Assembly: GCA_003514005.1 (NCBI GenBank)
Contig: DOSJ01000019.1
Span: 22,868 to 86,867, forward strand
DNA length: 64,000 bases
Source of the DNA: Candidatus Falkowbacteria bacterium
GTDB taxonomy: Bacteria; Patescibacteriota; Patescibacteriia; Patescibacteriales; UBA12075
Direction of reading: 5' to 3'
Shown here: in pieces, positions 1,384-58,847 of the stretch
Layout: each line of letters starts with the position of its first letter
Position numbering within the stretch: position 1 is the stretch's first letter
Position numbers and translations under genes: made by a program
The notes under the pieces: generated by a model
Databases searched by the model: none
What the model was told of the DNA's origin: nothing
Seen by the model: only the letters and a program-made list of their open reading frames with translations

Positions 1384-2304
1384 TCACTCAATAACTCCAA
1401 ATAATCTAATCCAATCGTCAACCGAAAGCTCCTGCGCCCGGATCTTCTCATCAAAACCGCATTCTTTAAACCATTCCCCCACTTTTTCTTGGCCAATCTT
1501 ATAACAACCCGCCAAATTATTCTTAAGCATTTTCCTTCGTGAACCAAACCCAAACTTAACCATCCGAAAAAATGCTTTATTATCAATTTCTAACTTCTTA
1601 CTTCTAACTTCTAGCTTAATTACCGCACTCTCCACCGCCGGCACCGGCCAAAAAGCCACCCTCGGCACATATCCCACAATTTCCGCGTCTGCATAAAACT
1701 GCACCGAAACCGCCAAAAGACTCATTTTACCTGGTTTGGCAACAATTCTCTCAGCCACCTCTTTTTGGAGCATCAGGGTCATTGTCTCTGGTTTATTTTC
1801 GGATTCAAGAAATTTGCGGAGGAAGATTGAGGTGATGTTGTAGGGAAGGTTGGCAACGACTTTGTAATTTTTAATTTTTAATTTTAAATTTTTATTCAAT
1901 TTTAAATTTTCAATTTCTAATTTATCTTTTTTTTCAGATTCATTTATAATTAAATCATTAAAAATTGAATTAAAATTTAAAATTTCAAATTTAAAATTAA
2001 AATCAAGAATATTCTCATTAACAACCTCTACATTCTCGACTTTATCAAACCTCCGTCCAAGCAATCCTGCCAAAACGTCGTCAAGCTCCACCGCCACCAC
2101 TCTCCCCGCCTTCTCTGCCAATTTCTCTGTCAAAAACCCAAGCCCCGGCCCCACTTCCAAAACCGTATCATCTTTATTAATCCTTGCAACCTCAACAATC
2201 CGATCATAAATATTTTCCTCAATTAAAAAATTCTGCCCTTTTGAACGGGAAGGAATGATATTGTTTTTTTTACAAATTTCCTCTGTTTTTTGGAATAGGT
2301 TCAT
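1384..2304 (-). CDS. rsmA: 16S rRNA (adenine1518/1519-N6)-dimethyltransferase RsmA/KsgA
   Basis: Motifs SRSKGQNFL, VLEVGPGLGFLT and VANLPYNITS. ATG 2304 lies 1 nt after the TGA (2308-2306) of the upstream ORF; the track start 2328 would overlap that ORF. Carries a low-complexity insert. Confidence 0.85.
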   Translation of the reverse strand: MNLFQKTEEICKKNNIIPSRSKGQNFLIEENIYDRIVEVARINKDDTVLEVGPGLGFLTEKLAEKAGRVVAVELDDVLAGLLGRRFDKVENVEVVNENILDFNFKFEILNFNSIFNDLIINESEKKDKLEIENLKLNKNLKLKIKNYKVVANLPYNITSIFLRKFLESENKPETMTLMLQKEVAERIVAKPGKMSLLAVSVQFYADAEIVGYVPRVAFWPVPAVESAVIKLEVRSKKLEIDNKAFFRMVKFGFGSRRKMLKNNLAGCYKIGQEKVGEWFKECGFDEKIRAQELSVDDWIRLFGVIE

Positions 2305-9766: not shown

Positions 9767-10573
9767 TCATAATTCAATCCCAACCGGACAATGATCCGAC
9801 CCAAGCACTTTATCCAAAATATACGCGCTTTTAATTTTTTTCATTAAACTATCTGATACGCAAAAATAATCAATCCGCCAACCAACATTATTTCGCCGTG
9901 CGCCGGCGCGATAGCTCCACCAGGAATATTGGATTTTATTCGGATTAAGTTCACGGAAAGTGTCTTTGAAACCGGAAACCAAAAACCTATTCATCCATTC
10001 ACGTTCACGCGGATGAAACCCCGGGTTGCCGATATTTTCTTTAGGCCGCGCCAAATCGATTTCATTATGCGCGACATTAAAATCGCCCGTAACAATTAAC
10101 GGTTTGGTTTTTTCCAATTTTTTAAAATATTTTAACAATTTATCATTAAAATCAATTTTAAAATCCAAGCGCGACAATTCATGATTAGCATTGGGAAAAT
10201 AAATATTGGCCAAATAAAATTTGCCGAGGTCGATTATCTGAACACGCCCTTCATTGTCCCAATCCAATCTATCCAAATCCACAACTTTATAACTTTCAAC
10301 TTTCAAACTTTTTACTTTGTTACTTTCAACTTTCAAACTTTTTACTAAAACCGCCGTCCCCGAATATCCCGGCCGCTGTGCCGAATTCCAAAAAATATCA
10401 TAACCGATTTTTTCTGGATGCAAAATCTCGTCCAACTCTTTCTTGCGCGCCACCTCAGAAATTTTAATCTCCTGCAAACACAAAACATCCGGCTCTTCTT
10501 TTTTCAAAAAACCGAGAAGATCTTTTTTAATTACAGCGCGCAGGCCGTTTATATTCCAAGAGATTATTTTCAT
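9767..10573 (-). CDS. xth: exodeoxyribonuclease III
   Basis: Motifs ISWNINGLRA, LCLQEIK, GYSGTAV and SDHCPV. ATG 10573 (MKIISWN) preferred over the TTG at 10582. Contains a 30-bp tandem duplication. Confidence 0.9.
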   Translation of the reverse strand: MKIISWNINGLRAVIKKDLLGFLKKEEPDVLCLQEIKISEVARKKELDEILHPEKIGYDIFWNSAQRPGYSGTAVLVKSLKVESNKVKSLKVESYKVVDLDRLDWDNEGRVQIIDLGKFYLANIYFPNANHELSRLDFKIDFNDKLLKYFKKLEKTKPLIVTGDFNVAHNEIDLARPKENIGNPGFHPREREWMNRFLVSGFKDTFRELNPNKIQYSWWSYRAGARRNNVGWRIDYFCVSDSLMKKIKSAYILDKVLGSDHCPVGIEL

Positions 10574-10618
10574 ATAATACAAATCTTAAATCGAAAATCT
10601 GAAATCGAAAATCGAAAA

Positions 10619-12337
10619 TCACCAACTCCCTCCCCCACCCCCACCAAATCCACCACCCGAGTCACCTCCGCTAAAACCACTTCCGCCAGACGATGCCGTA
10701 GACGCCATAATAGTATTAGTACTAGATTGAAAACCGCCCAAGCTATTTGTAAAAGCCAGCACGGAAAAATTTCCCATATTCGCATCGCTATACCAAGATG
10801 GATTTGTCTGATAAATATTTTCAAATTGCTTTGCCCAGGCCGCTTCAACACCCAATACCATCGCAAAAGGCAATAATTTTTCAAAAATTTGCGGATTTTT
10901 TTCTGGGGCATTGTGAAAATTAATTCTGTCCTTTTCCGCAATATTCAAATACGTTTTTAAGCCAAGGATATGCTCGCGCGCCAACACGCCTTTCTCTGAT
11001 TTTTTCGGCATAAAATTACCAAAAATCATAATAAGTAATCCTGATAACGCGAAACTAACATAACCGATTATTCCAAAAAATTGTCCAAATAAAAATCCCA
11101 AAAACACAATTACTATGCCAAATACAAAATATTTTATCCGGACAGAATTCGGATTGGAAAGAAAATAACCTTTTTCAACAACCGATTGATATACCTTTTT
11201 TGTTATTAATTGCAAATCTTTAAAAAACTTATTTTTTAAATCCGACAACTTGATTTTGTTGTCATTGCCAAATAAAGCCTGAACTAAAGTTTTTTGATAT
11301 TCGTTTAAACCGGCGCTTTCATTTTTCAATTTTGTTAATTCATAATCATCGGATTGTAAAATATTTTTTTCTTGGATTTTCTCAATTTTCAAATAACCGC
11401 GTACAGCCAAATTTATAATCTCGGCCGAAATATCTTTCTGCTGTGCCTTTTCGTCGACAATCGTTCCGATCTCGGCCGGACTTAAATTATCCGGCGCGTC
11501 GAATTGAGCGACAATAGTCCCTCGACCTTTTGGATCACGTCCATTTTTTTTCCATGAAATAAATAAAAAATAAAACACAAAAAACGGCAATAAAATAATA
11601 TAGTTATCTTTGGCAATCTCAAAAAACGTTTTGAATACTGATGGTTTTTTTACGACCCCTTTCGGCAGTCCGATAACAACGGTAACGCCCTCATGCGCGC
11701 GCAAACTGTCATCGGTAAATACCAGCTTGTCAACCATGTTTTCCGCGCTAAAATTCAAACGGCTGGAAACGCATTCTGCCGTACTGCCGGATACTCCAGT
11801 GTAGCAGATAGAGCGCAAAGATTCTTTGTTGACGCTTTCAGGCAAGGTTACCGTTGTCTTTGATCGGCTGATCGGCGTGATCCAGTTGTTGCCGGTCGCG
11901 TTCCAATAAAGCTCGTCATAATCGGCAAAATAATTGATAGCCCGTTCCACTTTATAGTGCAGTACGTATCGCATCGCTCCGGTAACAAAAACATCAGCAT
12001 CGCCAATCTTGAGACGCTTGTCATTGCCTTTGCTTTCAATCTTAAACTCAACCGCTTTTCCCTCGCCGTCTGTAACGGAAAAATCCGAATAGCGCAGTTT
12101 AAAATTCCCGCCATTATTTTTGTACTTGTACGGCAAATCGCGAAAGATGCCGTGCTTCTGTTCCGTACCAAAATCATAGGCAATGCTTTCGTCAACTTCA
12201 ATCGATGCGTCTTTGTTGATTTTGATATCTACTGTAAAATCATTAATCTGCTCCTCGGCAAATGCCGGCGATGCAAAAAATAAACAAGCTGATATTAATA
12301 GGCAAACTTGAATAAATATTTTTTTTATTTTTGACAT
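10619..12337 (-). CDS. DUF2207-type membrane protein
   Basis: 572 aa. Signal peptide, extracytoplasmic N-domain (KHGIFRDLP), TM helices and a Gly-rich tail SGGSGFSGGDSGGGFGGGGGGSW typical of DUF2207. Confidence 0.8.
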   Translation of the reverse strand: MSKIKKIFIQVCLLISACLFFASPAFAEEQINDFTVDIKINKDASIEVDESIAYDFGTEQKHGIFRDLPYKYKNNGGNFKLRYSDFSVTDGEGKAVEFKIESKGNDKRLKIGDADVFVTGAMRYVLHYKVERAINYFADYDELYWNATGNNWITPISRSKTTVTLPESVNKESLRSICYTGVSGSTAECVSSRLNFSAENMVDKLVFTDDSLRAHEGVTVVIGLPKGVVKKPSVFKTFFEIAKDNYIILLPFFVFYFLFISWKKNGRDPKGRGTIVAQFDAPDNLSPAEIGTIVDEKAQQKDISAEIINLAVRGYLKIEKIQEKNILQSDDYELTKLKNESAGLNEYQKTLVQALFGNDNKIKLSDLKNKFFKDLQLITKKVYQSVVEKGYFLSNPNSVRIKYFVFGIVIVFLGFLFGQFFGIIGYVSFALSGLLIMIFGNFMPKKSEKGVLAREHILGLKTYLNIAEKDRINFHNAPEKNPQIFEKLLPFAMVLGVEAAWAKQFENIYQTNPSWYSDANMGNFSVLAFTNSLGGFQSSTNTIMASTASSGGSGFSGGDSGGGFGGGGGGSW

Positions 12338-12725: not shown

Positions 12726-13405
12726 TGAACAATCCCTTAAAACCCTGGTATAAAAAATGGTGGGGCGTATTGGCATTATTAGCGCTTTTGTTTTTTATAA
12801 GCATATTTTTTGCTTTTGTTTTTTTGGTTATCAATTCCCGTGATACTGCGCCTAGCTCTGGCATCAATCCTTTGTTAACGCAAAAAGTTCCGGCGCTGGC
12901 GATCGGTACGGAAAAAAACTATTGGCTCGGAAGCGCAAATCCAAAAATTACGATTGTCGAGTTTGGCGATTTTGCCTGTTCCTACTGTCAAAAATCGTTT
13001 TCCAAAATCCGAGAAATCAGCCAATTATACAAAAACGATATCAAATACATTTACCGCGACTATCCTGTCGTATCCGATTATTCCGCCAAGCTGGCCTTGG
13101 CCGCGCGCTGTGCCGGCGAACAAGGACTTTTTTGGATAATGCATGACAAGTTGTACATCAACCAAGGCATTAGTACGGATCAAGAAATATTAAATCATTT
13201 CAAACAAACCGGAGGCAATGAAGCAAAATTTTCCACCTGTTACGACGCAAACAAATATCTTCCCGAAATCGAAAAAGACTTGAGCGACGGACAATCTCTT
13301 AACATCACCGGCACGCCGACGTGGTTTGTGAATGGACAGAGGCTCGAGGGAGATGTGCCGTATGAGTATTTTATTAACCTAATTTCTAACATATTAGGTA
13401 CTTAG
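12725..13405 (+). CDS. DsbA/thioredoxin-fold thiol:disulfide oxidoreductase, membrane-anchored
   Basis: 226 aa with an N-terminal TM helix. CxxC active site in FGDFACSYCQ and a DsbA-like C-terminal part (ITGTPTWFVNG). Confidence 0.75.
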   Translation: MNNPLKPWYKKWWGVLALLALLFFISIFFAFVFLVINSRDTAPSSGINPLLTQKVPALAIGTEKNYWLGSANPKITIVEFGDFACSYCQKSFSKIREISQLYKNDIKYIYRDYPVVSDYSAKLALAARCAGEQGLFWIMHDKLYINQGISTDQEILNHFKQTGGNEAKFSTCYDANKYLPEIEKDLSDGQSLNITGTPTWFVNGQRLEGDVPYEYFINLISNILGT

Positions 13406-13488
13406 GTGCTTGGGTACTTAGGGGTTTGGTTTATTACAATTTTACCTCAACCCTAAGCACCCAAGCACCTAAGTACCTAAGTACCTAA
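13394..13488. repeat. intergenic hairpin, CCTAAGTA word family
   Basis: ttaggtacttaggtgcttgggtacttagggg vs ccctaagcacccaagcacctaagtacctaa: about 30 bp with 1 mismatch. Left arm contains the dsbA-like stop; right arm ends 4 nt before the porG ATG. Confidence 0.75.
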
Positions 13489-14034: not shown

Positions 14035-14060
14035 ACCCTATTTTTGATTAATAGAACAAA

Positions 14061-14128
14061 GTTAATTAGTTGATTAGTTAATTAGGGTATAAATATTTAC
14101 ATCCTAATTAACTAATCAACTAATTAAC
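14061..14128. repeat. hairpin between porG and porD, TTAATTAG word family
   Basis: gttaattagttgattagttaattagg (14061-14086) is the exact reverse complement of cctaattaactaatcaactaattaac (14103-14128). Confidence 0.8.
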
Positions 14129-14144
14129 TAATTAACTAACAAAT

Positions 14145-19954: not shown

Positions 19955-19970
19955 AATTTTTTTAAAAAAA

Positions 19971-20036
19971 GTTAATTAGTTAATTAGTGATTAGGAGCAT
20001 AATCCACTCGGCCTAATCACTAATTAACTAATCAAC
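19971..20036. repeat. hairpin upstream of porB, TTAATTAG word family
   Basis: gttaattagttaattagtgattagg vs cctaatcactaattaactaatcaac, a near-perfect 25-bp inverted repeat. Confidence 0.75.
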
Positions 20037-20050
20037 TAATAACATATTAT

Positions 20051-25245: not shown

Positions 25246-25256
25246 ATATTTTATTA

Positions 25257-25329
25257 AATTCTAATTTCTAATTTCTAAAGCCTAAATTTATGATTAAATT
25301 TAGAAATTAGAAATTAGAAATTAGAAATT
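25257..25329. repeat. rpoB-rpoC intergenic hairpin, TTAGAAA word family
   Basis: aattctaatttctaatttctaaagcctaaattt vs aaatttagaaattagaaattagaaattagaaat. The right arm is 4 units of a 7-nt period. Confidence 0.8.
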
Positions 25330-25346
25330 TTATTTAATTTTATTTA

Positions 25347-28772: not shown

Positions 28773-29171
28773 ATAATTTATATTATTTTTATTATTAATA
28801 TTTTGTTATAATATTTGCCCAATTCTTTCCAGTACACAAAAAAACCTCAATCACTTTGAGTTCTATCAGTTTCGTATTAAATTTACTTCAGAAAAATAAT
28901 TCCCACCTAAATTCGTTTATTAATAAACAGCATGGAGATTTTCTATTTTTTTTCTAATATCAGCAAAACAAAAGAACAACACAGATACGCATTTTTCTAT
29001 ACGTTGCTTTCTTATTCACCTTATTATTGCTTATATTATTTACAATAAGAGATATACACAGTAAATATTCGTATTGATATATTAACAAGCTTAAAAATAT
29101 TTGTCAAGTGCAGTTTTTACAATAAAATTTTATATTTTTTTATATTTCCGAAATTCTCACTAACCCGTTCC

Positions 29172-29287
29172 GTAAGGACTTGAATTAGTTATTATCTCAC
29201 TGCGGAACTCGACTTTTTTCTTTATTATTTATTTTGGAAGCGTCTCTAACAGTCCTCGCTTCGATAATAACTAATTCAAGTCCTTAC
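29172..29287. repeat. 24-bp perfect inverted repeat with 68-nt interior
   Basis: gtaaggacttgaattagttattat (29172-29195) is the exact reverse complement of ataataactaattcaagtccttac (29264-29287). Lies in the 570-bp non-coding gap upstream of rpoB. Confidence 0.8.
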
Positions 29288-29342
29288 TACACTACCATTT
29301 TATATTTCTAAAACTAATCCTATTCCCGCACCTATGCCCTAA

Positions 29343-30938: not shown

Positions 30939-31976
30939 TCACTTTATCTTCCTTCTCACCCACCTAAGCCAATTATACATCTTATACAAAACCGAATCAA
31001 ACACCGCATCAAAAGTCCCCGGATAGTCAACTTCTTCTCCGCCATAACCTTTTTTAAACCGCGTAACTCCCGGCCATTTACTCTCGTCAATGCCAAAAAA
31101 ATCATAATATCGACAACCACGCGCCTTTGCTTCGCGAATACTCTGCCACTGCAAAGCATAAGTCGCCATCAAATTCCGATATTCATTTGAAGAAGCGCCA
31201 TGCACATAGGTCACGGTATCGCCAAAAAACGCAACAATATTTCCGGCAATAATTTTGTTTTGATATTTTGCAATAAATAATTTAATAGACAAACCTGATA
31301 TTGAATATTGATTATTGGAAATTGAATTATTATTGGATATTGAATGATTATTGAGTATTGAATATTGAACATTAAAAAGCATTTTCCAATAATACTCCTT
31401 ACCATGCAAGCGAAACCCATCACGCTCATTCGTTTCCCGCATAATCTCCCAAAACTCTTCAAAATCCTCTTTCTTAGCCTCACTAATTTCTATCCCCTTC
31501 TTTTCTGTCAAACGAATATTATAACGAGTCTTCGGATGCATCTGTTTCAATATTTCATCTTCTGATTTTGAAATATCAAGTATCAATGTCTTTTTCGGCT
31601 GCAAAGAAATTGTTTCTATAATTTTATACTTCTTACTTCTAACTTCTAACTTCACAACCGGTTCAAAACGCAAAAATATACATTTTTCTTTTTTCGCAAT
31701 TTTTTTTATCTCCAAAAACAAATCGGAAATCGCAAATCGCAAATCGCAAATCCCCACCCTTGGCGCATAAAAATACCCCAACCCCAAAAACAATCTTTTT
31801 CTAATCAAAGTAACCACGCCAACCAACTCTCCGTTTTCCTCAATCCCAAACCGAAAAACCTTATTCCCAGCCGCTTCCTGAAATTCTCCCCACTCGAAAG
31901 ACTGCAAAAATTGGCTTTGTTTTTGTTTAGTTAAATAATTATTTAATTGTTCTTTAGTTATATCTATTAATCTCAT
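30939..31976 (-). CDS. FemAB-family peptidoglycan interpeptide-bridge aminoacyltransferase
   Basis: 345 aa with FLQSFEWGEFQ, HGASSNEYRNLMATYALQW and RYYDFFGI, typical of the FemAB/FemX family. Three word-repeat insertions. Confidence 0.75.
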   Translation of the reverse strand: MRLIDITKEQLNNYLTKQKQSQFLQSFEWGEFQEAAGNKVFRFGIEENGELVGVVTLIRKRLFLGLGYFYAPRVGICDLRFAISDLFLEIKKIAKKEKCIFLRFEPVVKLEVRSKKYKIIETISLQPKKTLILDISKSEDEILKQMHPKTRYNIRLTEKKGIEISEAKKEDFEEFWEIMRETNERDGFRLHGKEYYWKMLFNVQYSILNNHSISNNNSISNNQYSISGLSIKLFIAKYQNKIIAGNIVAFFGDTVTYVHGASSNEYRNLMATYALQWQSIREAKARGCRYYDFFGIDESKWPGVTRFKKGYGGEEVDYPGTFDAVFDSVLYKMYNWLRWVRRKIK

Positions 31977-31977
31977 C

Positions 31978-32006
31978 TTGACTTAATTTTAATATTTTTA
32001 TATAAT
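31978..32006 (+). promoter_or_regulatory. near-consensus sigma70 promoter (plus strand, antisense to neighbours)
   Basis: TTGACT (31978-31983), exactly 17 nt, TATAAT (32001-32006). Confidence 0.6.
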
Positions 32007-32013
32007 ATTAACA

Positions 32014-32413
32014 TATATTGGGTAAGAGCGTATCTTGCCAGTGGTGATGCATTATAACCGTCAAACCGGAATTCTGCTTAGCCAACGCCTGTGCAGATTC
32101 CAAAAAGGAGAAACGCCTATGTTTGCACTAACCATTAATTGTACGGGGATGTTCGCTTGCTGAATTATTGACGTAACCAAAAAAAACGCGAACGCAAAAA
32201 GTTAACCGCTTATATTAAAAGGAGACATCGCCTATGTATACGTCAAAAGATAACACCATGTAATGCAGAGGGCTTAGGCACAGGAAAGCCGCTTACACGC
32301 GAATGTCTTTCGCCTAAAGACGCTTTATTCGCGTGTAAGCGCAACCCCACTTTGTTCTTTTTCAAAAAAGTTTTCAAGTATCAACTGGTATTCAAACACC
32401 AGTTTTTATTTTA
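32014..32413 (+). ncRNA. candidate ~400-nt orphan RNA with two SD-led micro-ORFs
   Basis: Bounded by the promoter above and terminator 32383-32413. Micro-ORFs at 32119-32163 (MFALTINCTGMFAC) and 32234-32263 (MYTSKDNTM), each behind AAAAGGAGA-N7-ATG. Hairpin of 15+6 bp at 32290-32341. Visibly more GC-rich than other spacers. Confidence 0.4.
32383..32413 (+). terminator. rho-independent terminator (plus strand)
   Basis: Stem aactggt / accagtt with an 8-nt loop, followed by tttttatttta. The minus-strand reading has no U-run. Confidence 0.7.
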
Positions 32414-32463
32414 TTCTTAATTCTAACTTCTTACTTCTTCCTTCTAACTTCTAACTTCTCACT

Positions 32464-33048
32464 TCATCTCCCAATCAACCGCAACGCCGCTCGAATTCTC
32501 TCACCCGAACCCTTAATACTCGGATCAACCTGCCGCAAAACATCACGCGCTTCAAACATGGAATAACCCAGGGCCATCAAAGCGTCAATCTCTTCCCCCG
32601 AAGTAATCATCCCTTTACCATCTGTCGCTTGCAGTACGCCATGTGAAATATGCGCAATCTTGTCACGCAAATCTAAAACCACACGCTCGGCAGTCTTCTT
32701 ACCGATCCCTGAAACTTTTATCAAAAGCGAAGAATCACCACGCGATATCGAATCCTTGATATCATCGACACTCGCGATGCCAATAACAGCAAGCGCCGAT
32801 TTCGGCCCAATACCGCTAATCGTCAAAAGTAATTCAAACATCTCTAATTGTTCTAATGATTTAAAACCGTACAGGGTGTGGGCATCCTCACGAATATGCT
32901 GATGAATATACAGCTCTATTTCCTGTCCGATTTCAAGGTCAACAAAAATAGTTTCACTGACAAAAACCAGGTAACCAATGTCACGCACGTTCAAAATAAT
33001 ATAATTCTTTTGTTTGTTTTGAATTTTTCCTCGTAAATACGCTATCAT
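32464..33048 (-). CDS. ruvA: Holliday junction DNA helicase subunit RuvA
   Basis: 194 aa with MIAYLRGK.., HhH motifs (ISGIGPKSALAV, VSGIGKKTAERV) and a C-terminal domain III. Confidence 0.9.
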   Translation of the reverse strand: MIAYLRGKIQNKQKNYIILNVRDIGYLVFVSETIFVDLEIGQEIELYIHQHIREDAHTLYGFKSLEQLEMFELLLTISGIGPKSALAVIGIASVDDIKDSISRGDSSLLIKVSGIGKKTAERVVLDLRDKIAHISHGVLQATDGKGMITSGEEIDALMALGYSMFEARDVLRQVDPSIKGSGERIRAALRLIGR

Positions 33049-33122
33049 AAATTTCTAAATCCTAAATTATAATTTCTAAATTAATGCATTTATTAGACAT
33101 TAGAAATTATAATTTAGAAATT
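33049..33122. repeat. hairpin, TTAGAAA word family
   Basis: Right arm 33093-33122 is the reverse complement of a 30-mer (aatttctaaattataatttctaatgtctaa) found identically at 39613-39642. The right arm supplies the last 5 codons and stop of the U32 ORF. Confidence 0.8.
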
Positions 33123-34399
33123 TTTCTTCTTATCACACTAAACTCCACCACCATCTCATCCAACTCCAACCACACCAAAGCCCCCTGCCCACCATGCGCC
33201 TCTGCAATTTCCGCCCCGGTTTTAGCGTCCCAAAGCCTTTCCACCTTCAGCTTAATTATATCATACTTCGGCTTCACAATCTCAATCTCATCGCCAACTC
33301 TAATTGAATTATGAACTTTAATTAAAACCTTCTCACTTCTTGCTTTGAACTTCTTACTTCTAACTTCTAACTTCTTACTTACCACAACTCCGCAAAACTC
33401 CCACTCACTTTTCTCATGCGAATTATCCAAATTCTGATCCGCCTTATCTCCCAACAAAAACCCGGTCGTATAACCACGATGCACAAGTTTTGTTTCCAGC
33501 TCTTTTTGTAAATATTCCATTTCAACGATCTGATTTTTTTTATTTTTAATACCAAGCAATTCTATCGCCCGTGAATAAATACCCGCAACTACCGCCTGAT
33601 AATAAACGCTCTTTGCTCGTCCCTCGATCTTAAAACTTGAAATCCCAGCTTCTTGAAGTTCCTTTAAATATTTCACCAAACACAAATCCTTCGAATTCAA
33701 AATATACGACCCATGTTCTTCTTCAACAATTTCAAACTCATCACCTTTCTCATTTCTTACTTCTAACTTCTCACTTCTCACATCCCCCTTCCATCTACAA
33801 GGCTGCACGCAATCCCCCAAATTCGCGCTCCTATCCGCATAATATTTTGACAAAAAACAACGCCCTGAATAAGCCATGCACATCGCGCCATGCACGAAAT
33901 ATTCTAATTCCAAATCAGGACATTTTTTATGAATCATTTTGATTTCCGGCAAAGTCGTTTCACGACCCAGAATAATTCTTTTCACTCCTTGCGCTTGCCA
34001 AAATTTTGCCGCCTGCCAATTTGTGCAATTAGCCTGCGTGGAAAGATGAATTTCAACTTCTGGCCAAATTTCTTTTACAATCTCAATCACGCCAGGGTCA
34101 GAAATAATCAAAGCATCGACTTTTATTTTTTTTAATTTTTTAATATATACTGGCAATTTTTCCAAATGTCGATTATGCGCAAAAATATTTACGGTGATAT
34201 AAATCTTCTTACCGATTTTATGGCAATATTCAGTAGCCTCCTTAATTTTCTCCAAATCAAAATCATTAATCCTCACCCGTAAAGAAAAATCCGGAATCCC
34301 GGCATAAACCGCATCCGCCCCAAAAACAAGAGCCGTCTTCATCTTCTCCATATTCCCAGCCGGAGCAAGCAATTCAATTTTACTAAATTTTTTATCCAT
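33107..34399 (-). CDS. peptidase U32 family protein
   Basis: 430 aa with ELLAPAGN, YFVHGAMCMAYSGRCFLS, CVQPCRW and FKIEGR, typical of U32. Confidence 0.85.
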   Translation of the reverse strand: MDKKFSKIELLAPAGNMEKMKTALVFGADAVYAGIPDFSLRVRINDFDLEKIKEATEYCHKIGKKIYITVNIFAHNRHLEKLPVYIKKLKKIKVDALIISDPGVIEIVKEIWPEVEIHLSTQANCTNWQAAKFWQAQGVKRIILGRETTLPEIKMIHKKCPDLELEYFVHGAMCMAYSGRCFLSKYYADRSANLGDCVQPCRWKGDVRSEKLEVRNEKGDEFEIVEEEHGSYILNSKDLCLVKYLKELQEAGISSFKIEGRAKSVYYQAVVAGIYSRAIELLGIKNKKNQIVEMEYLQKELETKLVHRGYTTGFLLGDKADQNLDNSHEKSEWEFCGVVVSKKLEVRSKKFKARSEKVLIKVHNSIRVGDEIEIVKPKYDIIKLKVERLWDAKTGAEIAEAHGGQGALVWLELDEMVVEFSVIRRKISKL

Positions 34400-39612: not shown

Positions 39613-39696
39613 AATTTCTAAATTATAATTTCTAATGTCTAAAGATTTATTAAATATGCAAAAATTTAGACATTAGAAATTAATAATTTAGAAATT
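39613..39696. repeat. hairpin, TTAGAAA word family
   Basis: aatttctaaattataatttctaatgtctaaa vs tttagacattagaaattaataatttagaaatt. Lies between htpX and the tRNA. Confidence 0.8.
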
Positions 39697-39708
39697 CATA
39701 AAAAACTG

Positions 39709-39780
39709 TGCTCTCGATAGGAATCGAACCTATATTACAAGTTCCGGAAACTTGCGTTCTATCCATTGAACTACGAAAGC
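39709..39780 (-). tRNA. tRNA-Arg (anticodon CCG)
   Basis: Hand-folded cloverleaf: GCTTTCG/CGAGAGC acceptor, GTTC/GAAC D-stem, CAAGT-TTCCGGA-ACTTG anticodon arm, ATAGG-TTCGATT-CCTAT T-arm, discriminator A. CCA is not encoded. Confidence 0.9.
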
Positions 39781-39785
39781 TAAAA

Positions 39786-39853
39786 AATTTCTAAGTTCTA
39801 ATTCCTAATTTCTAATCTTTTATTTAGAAATTATAATTTAGGACTTAGAAATT
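39786..39853. repeat. hairpin, TTAGAAA word family
   Basis: aatttctaagttctaattcctaatttctaa vs ttagaaattataatttaggacttagaaatt. Confidence 0.8.
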
Positions 39854-41647: not shown

Positions 41648-41787
41648 TGTCCAATTCGTTCTTGAATTCGTTCATATTGGCATACACGAATATAAACTGG
41701 TCAAAAACGAATAACAGCCAACTTTTGCCTATTTCTTGATTTAAAAATTAATAATTAGTTTTTGTTATTAAAACATTTTGTGAATTA

Positions 41788-41950
41788 GGCCGAAAATAAA
41801 TAATTGATTTTTATTAAATTACTGCTTGAAGCGGATCATATTACCTACTCGAATGTTTATGTATGAATCTAACTAATATCCAATTCTCTACTTCTGCGCT
41901 TTTGCTGAGCTGAGCTTAATTTAATAAAAATCAATTATTTATTTTCGGCC
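41788..41950. mobile_element. 163-bp element with perfect 34-bp terminal inverted repeats (copy 1)
   Basis: ggccgaaaataaataattgatttttattaaatta (41788-41821) is the exact reverse complement of 41917-41950. A second copy lies at 55027-55190 in the same orientation. Confidence 0.75.
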
Positions 41951-42086
41951 GATACGAATCTATAATTTTCCACAAAATAAGTTAATTAACCAAATTTTTA
42001 AACAAAAAAAACACGCGATTGCGTTTCTTGATTATATCTTAATCCTTTAAAATAATTTTGTAAAGTCCGATTTTCAAACCAACACA

Positions 42087-42109
42087 AAGCCCGCCGAAAA
42101 GGCGGGCTT
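42087..42109 (-). terminator. GC-rich hairpin terminator after the ABC/DUF4340 operon
   Basis: Stem aagcccgcc / ggcgggctt with a GAAAA loop. The minus-strand tail TTGTGTTGGTTTG is only partly U-rich. Confidence 0.55.
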
Positions 42110-42124
42110 AAATTAAAAAATGAT

Positions 42125-44702: not shown

Positions 44703-44813
44703 AAGTTTTAGTTGAAAGTTGAAAGTTAAAAGTTATAAAGTATAAAGTTATAAAGTTAATAAATTTAAAGTTTAAAAATTACTTTCAACTTTATAACTTT
44801 AAACTTTTTACTT
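44703..44813. repeat. hairpin, AGTTGAAAGT word family
   Basis: agttgaaagttgaaagttaaaagttataaagt... vs actttcaactttataactttaaactttttactt. The same words lie inside xth (10292-10346). Confidence 0.75.
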
Positions 44814-46581: not shown

Positions 46582-46592
46582 ATACAAATTTT

Positions 46593-46673
46593 AATTTCTA
46601 ATTTCTAAATTATAATTTCTAATAAATATAATTAAAAAATAATTTAGAAATTAGTAATTATAATTTAGAAATT
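46593..46673. repeat. hairpin in 5-prime leader of the ABC operon, TTAGAAA word family
   Basis: aatttctaatttctaaattataatttctaa vs ttagaaattagtaattataatttagaaatt. Lies between candidate promoter 46687-46714 and the ATG. Confidence 0.8.
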
Positions 46674-46686
46674 ATTAATTAATAAA

Positions 46687-49445: not shown

Positions 49446-49520
49446 AAATATAATGCAAATACTACAAATGTAATTCAAATGCTACAAATAAATAATTTCT
49501 TACTTCTAACTTCTCACTTC

Positions 49521-51431
49521 TTATTTATTCTTCTTTTCCGTAAACACCCCTTCCAACGGATCATCTTTCTTGTCAGCCTTTTGTTCACCCTCCGCCGCGC
49601 CTTCCGTCTTCCCGGCCGCATCCGCTTGCGCCTGCGCTGAATACATAGCCGCGCCGATGCGCTGAGCCACCTGACTCATCTCTTCCATCTTCTTTTTGAT
49701 ATCTTCCGCGTCATCGCCGTCTTTGATTTTTTTCAATGCTTCGAGCTTTTCTTCCAGCTCTTTTTTGTCTTCCGCTTTCATCTTATCGCCAGATTCTTTC
49801 AGGAGTTTTTCCGTGGTAAAGACTACGGTCTCGGCTTGATTCTTTATTTCAATATTCTCTTTTTTCTTTTTATCTTCTTCGGCATGCGCTTCCGCTTCTT
49901 TTTTCATGCGCTCGATTTCTTCTTTACTTAATCCGGATGATGCTGTAATTGAAATGCTTTGCTGTTTGCCGGTCGCTTTGTCTTTTGCACTTACGTTCAA
50001 TATGCCATTTGCGTCGATATTGAAAGAAACTTCAATCTGCGGAACACCGCGCGGTGCCGGCGGAATGCCATCGAGCATAAATCTTCCCAAGGTCTTATTA
50101 TCTGCCGCCATCCCGCGTTCGCCTTGAACAATGTGGATTTCCACGCTGGTCTGACTGTCAGCCGCAGTTGAAAATACTTGTGATTTACCGGTCGGAATGG
50201 TTGTATTGCGCTCAATCAAAGCGGTTGAAATACCGCCAAGTGTTTCAATACCAAGTGACAAGGGTGTAACATCCAAAAGCAAAACGTCCTTAACCTCCCC
50301 GCGCAATACACCGGCCTGCACAGCCGCGCCAATCGCAACCACTTCATCCGGATTAACGCTCAAATTCGGCTCTTTGCCAAAAAATTCTTTTACCTTTTGC
50401 TGAACCAAGGGCATGCGTGTCATACCACCGACCAAAATAACTTCTTCAATGTCGCTCGTTTTAAAACCGGCATCACGCAAAGCCTCACGACAAGGATGCA
50501 TGGTTTTTTCTACCAAATGTCCGACCAATTCTTCCAATTTCGCCCGTGTAATTTTCATCACCAAATGCTTCGGACCGTTTTCGTCAGTCGTAATAAACGG
50601 CTGATTGATTTCCGATTCCATAGTGGTGGAAAGCTCGATTTTCGCTTTTTCCGCCGCTTCTTTGATTCTTTGCAAAGCCAATTTGTCATTGCCAAGATTT
50701 AGACCAGTGTCTTTCTTAAATTCTTCAATAATCCATTTGATGATAATCTGGTCAAAATCTTCTCCGCCCAAATGCGTATCGCCGTTTGTGGCTTTCACTT
50801 CAACCGTATCTTCGGATACATCCAAAATCGAAACATCAAAAGTACCGCCACCAAGGTCATACACAGCAATCTTCTGTCCTTTCTTTTTTTCAAAACCATA
50901 AGCCAAGGCCGCGGCTGTCGGCTCATTGATAATGCGCAAAACATCCAAGCCGGCAATCTTGCCCGCGTCCTTTGTCGCTTGACGCTGTGAATCATTAAAA
51001 TATGCGGGAACGGTAATTACCGCTTCAGTAATTTTTTCTCCGATTTTCGCTTCGACGTCTGCCTTGATTTTTGACAAAATCATAGCCGACACTTCTTGCG
51101 GCGAATAATCTTTATCATTCATCTTAACGCTAACGCCTTCACCGGTTTTTACGATCTTGTAAGGCACGTGATTAATATCGCGCTGTACTTCTTCGTCTTC
51201 AAACTTTCTGCCAATCAAGCGCTTAACAGCATAAACCGTATTTTCCGGATTGGTAACAGCCTGACGCTTCGCAGTTTGCCCGATCAATCTTTCGCCATTT
51301 TTAGAAATAGCAACAATCGAAGGCGTCGTGCGATTGCCTTCCACATTCTCAATTATCTTCGGCTGTCCGCCTTCCATTATCGCGACAGCACTATTAGTGG
51401 TACCCAAATCGATACCAATTATTTTTGACAT
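49521..51431 (-). CDS. dnaK: molecular chaperone DnaK
   Basis: 636 aa with [18 protein letters not shown] and [11 protein letters not shown]. Confidence 0.97.
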
Positions 51432-51496: not shown

Positions 51497-51602
51497 CGTT
51501 CATCAGGTACTTAGGTACTTAGGGCTTAGGGATTTTTAAAATAATATTTGACTATAAATCCCTATTCCCCAAGTACCTAAGTACCTAAGTACCTGATGAA
51601 CG
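51497..51602. repeat. hairpin upstream of dnaK, CCTAAGTA word family
   Basis: cgttcatcaggtacttaggtacttagggcttagggattt vs aaatccctattccccaagtacctaagtacctaagtacctgatgaacg. Confidence 0.75.
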
Positions 51603-51651
51603 TCTATTCTTTCACGAACGATATATACGAAATCTTCTTACTTCTAAATTC

Positions 51652-52611
51652 TTACTTAACCTCCACTGATTTTAACATCTCTTCAAAACCCTCCATCGGC
51701 ATCAATCCAAAATCCATATTAACAAACGCCACTCCCTTGTATTTTTCTTTTTTCAAATTAAGCAATGCCCCGACATTTTCACCGATATCAACGAATGGTT
51801 TTCCGGCGTTTTTGCTAAAGTCATCTTGGCCGATAAAACTTTTTTTATTTATCACGAGCGCTTCACCGCCACGATAACCGATTATCTTGGCTGGTTGAAT
51901 TTCAAATTTGGTTGAATCTCTTTTTCCTGGTTCTTCAAAATAGTATTTATTCTTTTGGTCCAAAAATCCCAAAGTCTCTTTAAAGTCATAAATGCTTGAT
52001 GTTGCTTCCCGTACAAAATTTGTGCTCACTCCGCCAAAAACCAACTTATCATTCAAAGAAAATTTGCCGTTAAAAATCGTGCTCGAGGCTTTTTCGGTAA
52101 ATTCAACCGTAACTTCGCCGAATACCGCCGGATACAAAAACGATAAACCTAAATCATTATTCGTATATTGTTTTTTAGCGGATTTTAACAATTCCGCCTT
52201 TTCTTCAAGCTCTTTTTTCGATGCCAAAAGATCTTCTTTCTCCTTTTCCGTTCCGCTTAATTTTTCCTTAAGATTTTCCAAGCGCTTTTCAAACTCTTCT
52301 TTGCTCGCGGTCGCCTCCGCGCTGATTTTTTTAAGATTCTTTCCGGTCGTACTGTTCTGCCAAAAATATATTCCACCGCCGACGATTATCGCGGTAACAA
52401 CAACTGAAGTTATCAAAGACATTAGTCCGCCAGAATCCTTTGCGCGCTCAAAATTTCTTGATTCATCTTTTTTTTCACTTACGCTTTTTTTGCGAAGCGT
52501 TGTTTTCTTTTTCGCAGCCGGCTTTGCTTCTTTTTTTTCAACTTCATTCACAGTATCGTTTTCACTTTCATCATTCACTAATATTTTTACTCCGTCCATT
52601 TTTGTATTCAT
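51652..52611 (-). CDS. hypothetical membrane-anchored coiled-coil protein
   Basis: ATG 52611 (MNTKMDGV) preferred over 52647, which overlaps a conserved upstream block. Lys/Glu-rich N-terminus, one TM (LITSVVVTAIIVGGGIYF), a coiled coil and a C-terminal domain. Confidence 0.5.
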   Translation of the reverse strand: MNTKMDGVKILVNDESENDTVNEVEKKEAKPAAKKKTTLRKKSVSEKKDESRNFERAKDSGGLMSLITSVVVTAIIVGGGIYFWQNSTTGKNLKKISAEATASKEEFEKRLENLKEKLSGTEKEKEDLLASKKELEEKAELLKSAKKQYTNNDLGLSFLYPAVFGEVTVEFTEKASSTIFNGKFSLNDKLVFGGVSTNFVREATSSIYDFKETLGFLDQKNKYYFEEPGKRDSTKFEIQPAKIIGYRGGEALVINKKSFIGQDDFSKNAGKPFVDIGENVGALLNLKKEKYKGVAFVNMDFGLMPMEGFEEMLKSVEVK

Positions 52612-52648
52612 ATATTTTTTTATTAATAAATAGCTTATACACTTCAAA

Positions 52649-54831: not shown

Positions 54832-54885
54832 AGCTTTTATCCACAAATATAAAAAAATCTTTTTTACTTTTATATTTTATACTAT

Positions 54886-54912
54886 TTAGCACTCAAGTGT
54901 CAAGAGTGCTAA
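54886..54912. promoter_or_regulatory. CIRCE operator overlapping the hrcA promoter
   Basis: TTAGCACTC-N9-GAGTGCTAA exactly. On the minus strand the N9 spacer contains TTGACA (54903-54898), followed 16 nt later by TATAAA (54881-54876). Confidence 0.9.
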
Positions 54913-54940
54913 TAATAAATTAATTTTGTTTTATTTTAGC

Positions 54941-54978
54941 AAAAAAACATTCAGTCAAAATGACTGAATGTTTGGTTT
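54941..54978. terminator. bidirectional-looking terminator downstream of mrdA
   Basis: Stem cattcagtc / gactgaatg flanked by A7 on the left and tttggttt on the right. Confidence 0.6.
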
Positions 54979-55026
54979 ATAAAAAATAATTTTATTTTTC
55001 CAGTTCTTCAAAACATTCCGTGGCTA

Positions 55027-55190
55027 GGCAGAAAATAAATAATTGATTTTTGTTAAATTACCAGCTTGAAGCGGATCATATTACCTACTCGAATGTTTAT
55101 GTGTGTATCTAACTATTATTTAACTCGCAACTTCTGCGCTTTTGCTGAGCTGAGCTTAATTTAATAAAAATCAATTATTTATTTTCGGCC
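55027..55190. mobile_element. 163-bp TIR element (copy 2)
   Basis: The right 70 nt are identical to copy 1. The left TIR differs at 2 positions (ggcAgaaa.., ..ttttGtt..). Confidence 0.75.
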
Positions 55191-55238
55191 GATACGGCCT
55201 TGAAATACCCACAAAAGGATGTTAAAGATCCATTTTTC

Positions 55239-58764: not shown

Positions 58765-58774
58765 AATATATAAA

Positions 58775-58844
58775 AATTTCTAATGTCTAAATTATAATTT
58801 CTAATTCTTTGGTTTAGAAATTAGAAATTATAATTTAGACATTA
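58775..58844. repeat. hairpin between mreB and mreC, TTAGAAA word family
   Basis: aatttctaatgtctaaattataatttctaatt vs tttagaaattagaaattataatttagacatta. Confidence 0.8.
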
Positions 58845-58847
58845 AAT

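What the first reader, a model, noticed from the sequence alone, without database searches (positions are those of the whole stretch)
33329..33380. One hexamer-period DNA word (GAAGTTAGAAGTAAGAAG) occurs in frame in three conserved genes and in two spacers
Seen, plus-strand coordinates: 1588-1617 (rsmA, read as LEVRSKKLE); 31629-31653 (femAB, LEVRSKKYK); 33329-33380 (U32, KKLEVRSKKFKARSEK); 33746-33781 (U32, [12 protein letters not shown]); and non-coding copies at 32416-32465 and 49496-49522. All copies share one orientation, and all genic copies use the same reading frame; a second frame also reads through (KLEVR) and only the third hits TAG. Inference: a dispersed repeat is inserting into, or converting, variable surface loops, and only frame-compatible events survive. 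In U32 the word occupies a loop that homologues also possess, so replacement rather than pure insertion is possible.
Basis: partly seen in the sequence, partly recalled or inferred. Interest (0 to 1): 0.65.

Follow-up and report, generated by a model that had tools for sequence, protein, structure and literature searches.

The report
Seven-base repeats filling protein loops
The repeated "word" is one family of seven-base tandem repeats that are scattered through this small groundwater bacterium's genome, lying just after stop codons and, read in frame, forming variable loops of otherwise conserved enzymes; this is a known kind of bacterial microsatellite in an unusual place.

Summary
The sequences are real and far beyond chance: 21 hits versus 0.04 expected, and 12 in-gene hits versus 0.45 when proteins are kept and synonymous codons redrawn. 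It is 7 nt (unit GAAGTWA, minus strand), not 6. Three units make 21 nt, or 7 amino acids, so every frame gives the same LEVRSKK-type peptide.

The window comes from Candidatus Falkowbacteria GW2011_GWC2_38_22 (Patescibacteria). It holds 37 period-7 and 26 period-8 arrays against about 3 expected of each, in several unit families. These arrays cover 16% of intergenic bases and 1.6% of coding bases.

GAAGTWA arrays occupy seven loci. Four lie in variable loops of RsmA, FemAB and U32. Three start at the stop codons of ruvA, dnaK and a hypothetical gene.

Orthologous U32 genes from four other Parcubacteria carry period-7 arrays in the same two loops, each lineage with its own unit. Loop 2 shows 7-residue periodicity across 112 homologues. 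In genes the arrays replace native loop sequence without adding length, and only the gene's frame is free of stops.

Best reading: dispersed heptanucleotide simple-sequence repeats (LSSR/STRR-like), made by slippage, kept alike within a genome by an unknown process, and filtered by selection. I rate this a new variant of a known kind, of moderate interest.

The parts
1588..1617 (-). GAAGTWA array (about 4.3 units) in rsmA, read as KLEVRSKKLE (aa 238-247): the end of the last beta-strand of the methyltransferase domain plus the linker.
   Evidence: Aligns without a length change to B. subtilis KsgA IRLILRDGPAVD. The site is variable among homologues. Relative L133 encodes KLEVR with non-array codons and L130 with array codons.
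31628..31653 (-). GAAGTWA array (3.7 units) in femAB, read as VKLEVRSKKY (aa 108-117).
   Evidence: The loop is variable among orthologues (L125 has KAQIINHKSQ, same length; L123 is 6 aa longer) and is 10 aa longer in S. aureus FmhB. One public scaffold breaks into Ns exactly inside this array.
32414..32465 (-). GAAGTNA array (about 7.4 units), non-coding, beginning at the TGA stop of ruvA.
   Evidence: Unstructured as RNA (MFE 0). Orthologues have no array here (L123) or a different heptamer array across the stop (L125, L127).
33329..33380 (-). GAAGTWA array (about 7.4 degenerate units) in the U32 peptidase, read as VSKKLEVRSKKFKARSEK (aa 340-357): the tip of a beta-hairpin in the U32_C domain (variable loop 2).
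   Evidence: AlphaFold2 model: strands 333-344 and 356-362 with a low-confidence turn. Four orthologues have period-7 arrays of other units at this loop. Period-7 residue autocorrelation has z = 5.9 over 112 homologues.
33747..33781 (-). GAAGTKA array (5 units) in the U32 peptidase, read as [12 protein letters not shown] (aa 207-218; variable loop 1). It is read in the other open frame of the 18-mer.
   Evidence: Period-7 arrays of other units sit at this loop in orthologues L123, L125 and L127.
49493..49521 (-). GAAGTNA array (about 4 units), non-coding, beginning right after the TAA stop of dnaK, in the dnaK-dnaJ spacer.
51634..51651 (-). Short GAAKTWA array (about 2.6 units) directly after the TAA stop of hypothetical ORF 51652-52647.
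10283..10346 (-). Related AAAGTNN array (period 7-8) in the Exo_endo_phos gene, read as LVKSLKVESNKVKSLKVESYKV. The unit is one base away from GAAGTTA.
31719..31752 (-). Second heptamer family (GATTTSC) in femAB, read as GICDLRFAISDL. The same family occurs in LeuRS (8298-8329, 8427-8445) and directly after the DUF2207 stop (10588-10620).
   Evidence: Orthologue L123 has (ATTTCAG)4.3 at the same FemAB position. The array after the DUF2207 stop is absent in the ~93% nucleotide-identical relative L128.
31298..31373 (-). TCAATAT-type heptamer array in femAB, read as NVQYSILNNHSISNNNSISNNQYSIS. This one is a net insertion.
   Evidence: It is 18-25 aa longer than both orthologues.
33045..33125 (-). 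Inverted pair of AATTTCT/TTAGAAA arrays filling the U32-ruvA spacer. It also encodes the last residues and the stop of U32 (ISKL*).
   Evidence: Hairpin z = -4.8.

Best explanation
The word is a stretch of a heptanucleotide tandem-repeat array with unit GAAGTWA on the sense strand. It is one of several dispersed 7- and 8-nt simple-sequence-repeat families in this Falkowbacteria genome.

Shown:
- Arrays of this kind are heavily over-represented.
- They fill much of the spacer DNA, running right up to and across stop codons.
- They also occupy structurally permissive loops, linkers and C-terminal tips of conserved proteins.
- Because 7 and 3 share no factor, three units encode a 7-residue peptide (K-L-E-V-R-S-K) in any frame.
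- A pure GAAGTTA or GAAGTAA array has a stop in every frame within 21 nt.
- The genic copies carry exactly the T/A/G variants at the sixth unit position that keep the gene's frame open. They leave the other two frames closed.
- So the genic copies are translated and have been filtered by selection.

Inferred:
- Arrays grow and shrink by slipped-strand mispairing. A 7-nt loop is not expected to be corrected by mismatch repair (my own knowledge).
- They start from sites that already resemble the unit, as with the native KLEVR strand of RsmA.
- They are kept alike among loci of one genome by some form of ectopic copying or template switching between arrays.
- Selection keeps only versions with length divisible by three, no stops, and a hydrophilic strand-and-turn peptide in soluble-protein loops.
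- I infer no function for the peptide itself; it is tolerated loop filler.
For: Period and family:
- Hits are spaced by 7 nt and TRF reports period 7.
- The window has 37 period-7 and 26 period-8 arrays, against 3.0 and 3.25 in local dinucleotide shuffles.
- The arrays fall into unit families, each at several loci.
- They cover 16% of intergenic and 1.6% of coding bases.

DNA level, not protein level:
- 12 in-CDS hits against 0.45 with proteins fixed and codons resampled.
- Non-coding copies exist.
- L133 encodes KLEVR with unrelated codons.

Translation and selection:
- Only the gene frame is open in each genic array.

Permissive sites and replacement:
-.

Generality and turnover:
- Four orthologous U32 genes carry period-7 arrays in the same loops, with lineage-specific units.
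- In three of those four loci the unit recurs nearby. It is in both U32 loops in L123, in RuvA in L125, and in three spacers in L126.
- Loop 2 shows a period-7 residue signal with z = 5.9.
- An array directly after a stop codon is present in the window but absent in a ~93% nucleotide-identical relative.
- In another Falkowbacteria genome the same unit in antisense encodes a transmembrane-like LLLTSYF segment.

No mobile-element machinery:
- No transposase, reverse transcriptase or RAYT is encoded in about 100 kb.

Precedent:
- Heptanucleotide LSSRs are the most abundant class in many bacteria, and slippage has been proposed as their origin (Mrazek et al. 2007, as summarised in PMC4679880 and PMC4692102).
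- Genome-specific heptamer families near or overlapping stop codons, and in inverted arrangement, are described in PMC4692102.
Against: - No slippage event was observed directly. Every array-bearing protein checked is identical on 10-14 contigs and in at least 24 assemblies, and an independent assembly is 100% identical over 11.4 kb. These probably sample one aquifer population, so the test is weak.
- Slippage alone does not explain why one unit occurs at seven loci, and the process that keeps loci alike is inferred, not shown. Shared 26-27-nt blocks between loci are about what pooled unit variants would give by chance (my estimate).
- (GAAGTWA)n arrays occur in many unrelated phyla. This could mean the unit is intrinsically favoured, or functional, rather than copied.
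- Genic arrays are degenerate (75-94% unit matches), so they may be old and no longer dynamic.
Confidence: 0.65

Rival explanations
1. The arrays are functional cis-elements. A lineage-specific RNA- or DNA-binding factor recognises the heptamer, or a molecular drive of the DNA-uptake-signal type spreads it. Either would maintain and spread the unit across the genome, including into tolerant coding sites.
For: - Each genome has its own favoured units, which recur at several loci.
- Orientation is strictly consistent: 7 of 7 copies are sense.
- The non-coding copies are placed exactly at stop codons.
- The same unit is seen in several Parcubacteria/Falkowbacteria MAGs.
- The GAAGTWA arrays are unstructured, purine-rich RNA, which suits single-strand binders.
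- Precedents: PMC4679880 proposes S1, Csp or Csr binding for TAACTGA repeats. From my own knowledge, uptake sequences also occur as inverted pairs after genes and in permissive coding sites.
Against: - At least eight different unit families coexist in 64 kb, which does not fit a single recognition motif.
- Orthologous sites carry unrelated units in sister lineages, and an array is simply absent in a ~93% nucleotide-identical relative.
- No candidate factor was identified.
- Orientation is confounded with gene and replication strand, because almost all genes here are on the minus strand.
Confidence: 0.17
2. A small non-autonomous mobile element (MITE- or REP-like) is inserting copies of a fixed sequence into genes and spacers.
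For: - The copies are dispersed, near-identical and in one orientation.
- An assembly breaks at a copy.
- The window does contain one true MITE-like repeat elsewhere.
Against: - Copies have no fixed length (18-52 nt), no terminal inverted repeats and no target-site duplications. Their internal structure is purely tandem 7-mers.
- In RsmA, FemAB and LeuRS they replace native residues without adding length.
- No transposase or RAYT is present in about 100 kb.
Confidence: 0.06
3. Convergence at the protein level. E/K/R/S-rich amphipathic strand-and-turn peptides are selected in these loops, and biased codon usage makes the DNA look alike.
For: - KLEVR is a native strand motif in RsmA of several species.
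- Codon identity for identical residues between relatives is already about 46-50%.
Against: - With proteins fixed and codons resampled, only 0.45 hits are expected against 12 observed.
- Three copies are non-coding.
- Homologues do not share the peptide at the FemAB and U32 sites.
Confidence: 0.03
4. Phase-variable contingency loci. Gain or loss of a unit frameshifts the host gene and switches it on or off.
For: A 7-nt unit would shift the frame with each step. Heptanucleotide phase variation is known in other bacteria (e.g. neuO; PMC13001214).
Against: - The hosts are housekeeping genes (RsmA, FemAB, U32, LeuRS).
- The arrays are short and degenerate.
- No length variants were found in any assembly.
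Confidence: 0.03

Closest known systems
Long simple sequence repeats (LSSR), heptanucleotide class (Mrazek, Guo and Shah 2007, as summarised in PMC4679880 and PMC4692102)
   Same: Tandem head-to-tail 7-nt units. Heptamers are the most over-represented class. Arrays are mostly intergenic and genome-specific. Polymerase slippage is the proposed origin.
   Different: Here over half of the copies of one family (4 of 7) are translated inside conserved housekeeping enzymes. Several unit families coexist. The host is a small-genome Patescibacteria organism, whereas by my recollection LSSRs were reported mainly from larger genomes.
Cyanobacterial STRR heptamers (Calothrix/Nostoc; cited in PMC4692102) and GGGAATC / GGGGAYT repeats of Xanthomonas and Nostoc (PMC4692102)
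   Same: Dispersed heptamer families with a genome-specific unit. [quoted passage not shown] Some are arranged as inverted pairs. Length and sequence vary between close relatives.
   Different: [quoted passage not shown] GAAGTWA is A/G-rich, unstructured and frequent inside genes. The unit sequences differ.
TAACTGA heptamer direct repeats of Beggiatoaceae, Cyanobacteria and Bacteroidetes (PMC4679880)
   Same: One heptamer dominates as tandem sets at many loci. Orientation relative to genes is strong. The authors note that stops in the unit limit overlap with genes, and that the reverse strand translates to a 7-residue repeat. The spreading mechanism is unknown.
   Different: TAACTGA sets sit mostly just upstream of start codons. 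Here the non-coding sets sit at stop codons and the rest are intragenic. The unit is different (TAACTTC on the opposite strand).
Borg tandem repeats and amino-acid tandem repeats (PMC9879509)
   Same: Nucleotide tandem repeats occur both in spacers (often starting within a gene end) and inside ORFs, where they create repeat peptides. They evolve fast and are lineage-specific.
   Different: Borg ORF repeats have unit lengths divisible by three and are perfect. Here the unit is 7 nt, the arrays are short and imperfect, and the 21-nt super-period is imposed by stop avoidance.
DNA uptake signal sequences (USS/DUS) - comparison from my own knowledge
   Same: Lineage-specific short motifs. They occur as inverted pairs after genes and in the less conserved parts of coding regions, and are spread by a molecular drive rather than by transposition.
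   Different: USS/DUS are single 9-12-nt motifs with one type per genome, not tandem arrays of many unit types. No uptake bias is known for this organism.

Membership tests
Heptanucleotide LSSR / dispersed heptamer SSR family | Head-to-tail tandem copies of a 7-nt unit, at least about 3 copies. | tested here: met
   TRF gives period 7, 3.7-7.4 copies and 75-94% matches at six loci. The seventh locus has 2.6 units.
Heptanucleotide LSSR / dispersed heptamer SSR family | Over-representation relative to composition-matched random sequence, with period 7 the leading class. | tested here: met
   37 period-7 arrays against a mean of 3.0 (maximum 7) in 20 local dinucleotide shuffles; period 8 gives 26 against 3.25.
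Heptanucleotide LSSR / dispersed heptamer SSR family | Unit-number instability (slippage) between strains or populations. | tested here: inconclusive
   No length variants among 10-14 contigs or at least 24 assemblies. However, an array is present or absent between ~93% nucleotide-identical relatives, and array lengths and units differ among orthologues. The two metagenome scans found nothing.
Cyanobacterial STRR | The specific units (my recollection: CCCCAGT, TTGGTCA, CAACAGT) in heterocystous cyanobacteria. | tested here: not met
   The unit is GAAGTWA and the host is Falkowbacteria. (GAAGTWA)n does also occur in Calothrix, Rivularia, Okeania and others.
MITE / REP-type mobile element | Fixed-length element with terminal inverted repeats and target-site duplication. 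| tested here: not met
   Copies vary from 18 to 52 nt and are purely tandem, with no TIR or TSD in the flanks. They replace sequence in place without adding length.
MITE / REP-type mobile element | A cognate transposase or RAYT in the genome. | tested here: inconclusive
   None in about 100 kb of the contig. The rest of the genome was not available.
Phase-variable contingency locus | Population polymorphism in unit number that toggles the reading frame of a surface or host-interaction gene. | tested here: not met
   The hosts are housekeeping genes, and the proteins are identical in all assemblies.
Borg-type amino-acid tandem repeats | ORF repeats with unit length divisible by three and perfect copies. 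| tested here: not met
   The unit is 7 nt and the arrays are imperfect.
Diversity-generating retroelement target | A template/variable repeat pair with adenine-specific differences, plus a reverse transcriptase. | tested here: not met
   Differences among copies are at one T/A/G unit position, not adenine-specific. No reverse transcriptase is present in about 100 kb.

The most novel reading that the evidence does not exclude
The loops of conserved housekeeping enzymes in Parcubacteria are continually overwritten by a genome-wide, sequence-specific homogenising process. This could be a trans-acting factor or a recombination- or uptake-driven molecular drive. It would keep a lineage-specific 'vocabulary' of heptamer arrays uniform across spacers and genes. 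Protein loop sequence would then be dictated by repeat dynamics rather than by descent, and the arrays (stop-adjacent single-stranded tracts and spacer hairpins) would have a regulatory role.
Probability: 0.18. Interest if true: 0.75.

Novelty: new variant of a known kind. Interest (0 to 1): 0.5.

Why it matters
Dispersed heptamer repeat families have been known in bacteria for decades, but how they spread and whether they do anything is unresolved.

This case offers a natural experiment in a very small genome. The same arrays sit in spacers, at stop codons and inside alignable, structurally understood enzymes. Orthologous loops in sister lineages carry different units.

That makes three questions testable by comparative genomics: the rate of array turnover, whether arrays at different loci evolve in concert, and how selection filters them by frame, stops and hydrophobicity.

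It also has practical consequences:
- Low-complexity 7-residue-periodic stretches in Patescibacteria proteins are microsatellite DNA read in frame, not conserved motifs.
- They inflate apparent protein divergence.
- They break assemblies.
- They can shift annotated stop codons.

Tried and rejected
- Genome-wide mapping of the word. It showed only that (GAAGTWA)n arrays occur in many phyla. By my estimate about 70 chance hits are expected for the degenerate 18-mer in 596 Gb, so single hits mean nothing. The arrays of 3-16 units are real.
- Copy-number polymorphism. Two metagenome-contig scans, one with the flanks and a variable gap and one with the flank plus the array start, found nothing. That collection does not hold this organism. 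Cluster look-ups found only point variants. The apparent FemAB 'variant' P0124 is a fragment caused by a scaffold gap inside the array.
- Extending the contig by 18 kb gave no further copies.
- Block sharing between loci. U32 site 1 and the dnaK 3' copy share 27 nt; FemAB and U32 site 2 share 26 nt. I considered this as evidence of copy-and-paste and dropped it, because with few unit variants such matches are expected among about 400 pairwise registers (my estimate).
- RNA pairing of (AGAAGUU)n with (AAUUUCU)n arrays through G-U pairs. I considered this for ruvA, but there are no partners near the RsmA or FemAB copies, and the arrays fold to nothing on their own.
- Read-through of the ruvA TGA into the array (SEKLEVRRKK*). 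This is no longer than chance allows, and I assumed the standard genetic code for Falkowbacteria.
- Rfam and tRNA scans found only tRNA-Arg.
- Literature searches found no description of heptamer arrays in Patescibacteria.
- The AlphaFold2 model did not resolve U32 loop 1 (pLDDT < 50 for residues 176-235).
Full report
**What is in the sequence**

A seventh copy lies at 51634-51651.

Matches at <=3 mismatches number 21, against 0.04 in dinucleotide shuffles. Successive hits are 7 nt apart and Tandem Repeats Finder reports period 7 at each locus. The object is therefore a tandem array of the heptamer GAAGTWA, not a hexamer-period word.

ORF and Pfam analysis confirms the hosts: RsmA (RrnaAD), FemAB, and a U32 peptidase holding two arrays. 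The 'spacer' copies follow ruvA, dnaK and a hypothetical gene.

The window is contig LBUC01000003.1 of Candidatus Falkowbacteria bacterium GW2011_GWC2_38_22, a member of the Patescibacteria/Parcubacteria.

**Is it more than composition?**

I applied three controls:
- Protein sequences kept, synonymous codons redrawn from the window's usage: 0.45 in-gene matches expected, against 12 observed.
- Codons shuffled within genes: 0.06 expected.
- Codons shuffled within 30-codon blocks: 0.06 expected.

None of 300 replicates reached 12 in any control. The signal is at the DNA level.

**The frame question**

Seven and three share no factor, so three units (21 nt) encode seven residues, and each frame of a pure array gives the same peptide in a shifted register.

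A pure (GAAGTTA)n array reads GAA GTT AGA AGT TAG and is closed in every frame within 21 nt. So is (GAAGTAA)n.

In each genic array the sixth unit base follows a rule set by its codon phase. It is T where the codon is TNA (Leu). It is A or G where the codon is NAG (Lys or Glu). It is free where the codon is GTN (Val).

As a result, only the gene's frame is open over each whole array, and the other two frames carry 2-4 stops. This shows that the arrays are translated and have been filtered.

Relative to the 18-mer, U32 site 1 uses a different frame from the other three genic copies. The 'second open frame' exists only for the bare 18-mer.

**It is one family among many**

The window holds 37 period-7 and 26 period-8 arrays, against about 3 of each in locally shuffled sequence. 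They fall into unit families:
- TTAGAAA/AATTTCT and the octamers AGTTAATT and AGGTACTT occur as inverted pairs in spacers.
- CGATTTN occurs in LeuRS (twice), in FemAB, and directly after the DUF2207 stop.
- TCAATAT occurs in FemAB and in a spacer.
- AAAGTTN occurs in an Exo_endo_phos gene and in a spacer hairpin.

Period-7/8 arrays cover 16% of intergenic and 1.6% of coding bases.

Spacer arrays run right up to gene ends. The three non-coding GAAGTWA arrays start 0-2 nt from a stop codon. The last residues and the stop of U32 (ISKL*) are themselves encoded by an AATTTCT array. Two short spacers are array from end to end.

**Where the genic copies sit in the proteins**

- RsmA: KLEVRSKKLE aligns residue for residue with B. 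subtilis KsgA IRLILRDGPAVD, which is the end of a strand plus the linker. Among 22 Parcubacteria homologues the linker is variable in length, and some carry their own 7-residue repeats, such as ELRIKNE x3 in P0195.
- FemAB: the array lies in a loop that is 10 residues longer in S. aureus FmhB. It differs in both orthologues examined, one of which has the same length.
- U32: both arrays fall in the two hypervariable loops of the family. In an AlphaFold2 model (mean pLDDT 79), site 2 is the tip of a beta-hairpin in the C-terminal barrel. Site 1 lies in an unresolved region.
- The window's two U32 loops are about the median length of 112-114 homologues.
- LeuRS: two of its three arrays likewise replace native segments with little or no added length, and the third adds six residues.
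- The TCAATAT array of FemAB is a clear net insertion of 18-25 residues.

**Relatives**

I retrieved the orthologous U32 loci of four other Parcubacteria (68-75% protein identity). All carry period-7 arrays in the same U32 loops, but with different units:

| Locus | Units in the U32 gene | Where the unit recurs nearby |
|---|---|---|
| L123 | CGAATGN / CGAGCGG | both U32 loops |
| L125 | AACATTC and GCACGCA | GCACGCA in RuvA |
| L126 | AATTAAG at loop 2; CGCATAA at a third site | AATTAAG in three spacers |
| L127 | AAAGTMA and AATCAGG | not seen |

Over 112 homologues, loop 2 shows a residue autocorrelation peak at period 7 only (0.112 against 0.073, z = 5.9).

At the RsmA site three relatives differ:
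- L130 has the same unit, AAGTTAGAAGTTAGAAGTAA.
- L129, another Falkowbacteria, has (AAAGTKA)5.
- L133 encodes the same KLEVR peptide with unrelated codons, AAA CTG GAG GTC CGG.

KLEVR is therefore a native strand motif. With common codons it already resembles 2.6 units, which makes it a plausible seed.

A ~93% nucleotide-identical relative (L128) lacks the CGATTTN-family array (TTTTCGA in that register) that begins at the DUF2207 stop in the window. Arrays are therefore gained or lost on short timescales. The ruvA 3' end carries no array in L123 and a different heptamer array in L125 and L127.

**Other phyla**

Nearly all hits lie in arrays of 3-16 units. They come from Cyanobacteria, Bacteroidota, Planctomycetota, Acidobacteriota, Chloroflexota and others, as well as Falkowbacteria, Roizmanbacteria and Parcubacteria. 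Most are intergenic, and 11 begin at an ORF stop.

In Falkowbacteria L057 the same unit lies antisense inside an O-antigen-ligase-like (my reading of the sequence) membrane protein and encodes LLLTSYFLLLTSLFF. This fits a hydrophobicity filter: the hydrophilic reading is tolerated in soluble loops and the hydrophobic reading in membrane segments.

**Stability**

The array-bearing proteins are identical on 10-14 contigs and in at least 24 assemblies. Their 90% clusters hold only point variants. An independent ENA assembly is 100% identical over 11.4 kb.

These assemblies probably sample one aquifer population, so this argues only weakly against ongoing slippage. One public scaffold breaks into Ns inside the FemAB array, as expected for a dispersed repeat.

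**Mechanism**

No transposase, reverse transcriptase or RAYT is encoded in about 100 kb. The copies have no fixed ends or target duplications. This argues against a mobile element.

The best-supported account is that these are dispersed heptanucleotide simple-sequence repeats, the LSSR class. The literature describes such repeats as the most abundant long SSRs in many bacteria, attributes them to polymerase slippage, and documents genome-specific units, placement at stop codons on the coding strand, and inverted pairs (PMC4679880, PMC4692102).

What remains inferred is how one unit comes to occupy many loci. Within-genome recurrence of units, contrasted with different units at orthologous sites, is the signature expected of copying or homogenisation between arrays. 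I could not show the events themselves. A functional or drive-based explanation keeps about 0.17 probability.

**Comparison and novelty**

Against the heptamer-LSSR definition, two features are met (tandem 7-nt units; over-representation with period 7 leading) and unit-number instability is inconclusive. It is not an STRR by unit or host, and it fails the tested MITE/REP criteria (no fixed ends, inverted repeats or target duplications). It also fails the criteria for a contingency locus, a Borg-type repeat and a DGR target.

Three things are new relative to the descriptions I could find:
- The host group; no paper in the searchable library describes heptamer arrays in Patescibacteria.
- The high share of translated copies inside conserved housekeeping enzymes.
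- The finding that the same loops in sister lineages are built from different heptamer arrays.

I rate it a new variant of a known kind, of moderate interest.

Noticed in passing
window 25250-25335; 33045-33125; 51500-51600; 58770-58848 (also 1275-1361, 13394-13488, 14060-14139, 19970-20040, 44722-44807, 46587-46685): Many spacers consist of an inverted pair of tandem 7- or 8-mer arrays that fold into long, almost perfect hairpins (MFE -19 to -53 kcal/mol; z -4.8 to -10.3). They are AT-rich and are not followed by a clear T-run, so they are not classical terminators. Relatives L123, L125 and L126 have the same arrangement with other units.
   Followed up: partly
window 39655-39825 (tRNA-Arg CCG at 39708-39780, minus strand): The only tRNA in the window is enclosed by a roughly 35-bp stem formed by the flanking (ATTAGAA)n and (AATTTCT)n arrays (z -4.5). 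It resembles an RNase III-type processing stem.
   Followed up: partly
window 41742-41956 and 54980-55196: Two copies, same orientation, of a roughly 170-nt non-coding element with about 35-nt terminal inverted repeats (GGCCGAAAATAAATAATTGATTTTTATTAAATTA ... TAATTTAAYAAAAATCAATTATTTATTTTCGGCC). BLAST gives 88% identity over 219 nt; the core looks closer to 92% by my estimate. One copy lies upstream of a SulP/STAS transporter gene and the other upstream of hrcA. It is MITE-like or a structured RNA; there is no Rfam match at gathering score.
   Followed up: partly
window 1861-2003 (rsmA aa 109-156): RsmA carries a second insertion, A/T-rich with period 7 (DFNFKFEILNFNSIFNDL...KLEIENLKLNKNLKLKIKNYK), in a region that is hypervariable in all Parcubacteria homologues. 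Several of those homologues show their own periodic peptides there, e.g. NFQFPISNFQKISNFQIP.
   Followed up: partly
L057 4402-4436 (Candidatus Falkowbacteria isolate S3_17): (GAAGTAA)5 lies antisense inside a 519-aa membrane protein that I read as O-antigen-ligase-like (no family search run) and encodes the transmembrane-like LLLTSYFLLLTSLFF. The same protein has other repeat-derived stretches (QISNY..., QITNYQLPITSIKY).
   Followed up: partly
L124 527-678 (ENA scaffold covering window 31473-31635): A public scaffold of this organism has a run of Ns starting exactly inside the FemAB GAAGTTA array. The gene caller consequently produced a truncated 167-aa FemAB, which became the cluster representative.
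   Followed up: yes
L131 10688-19486 (same contig, just upstream of window position 1): A 2932-aa ORF with no Pfam hit on record directly precedes the window.
   Followed up: no
window 31977-32463, 28773-29342, 41648-42124, 54847-55238: Four unusually long spacers (390-570 nt) for such a compact genome. Two hold the roughly 170-nt repeat above. The other two were not examined for small ORFs or RNAs.
   Followed up: no
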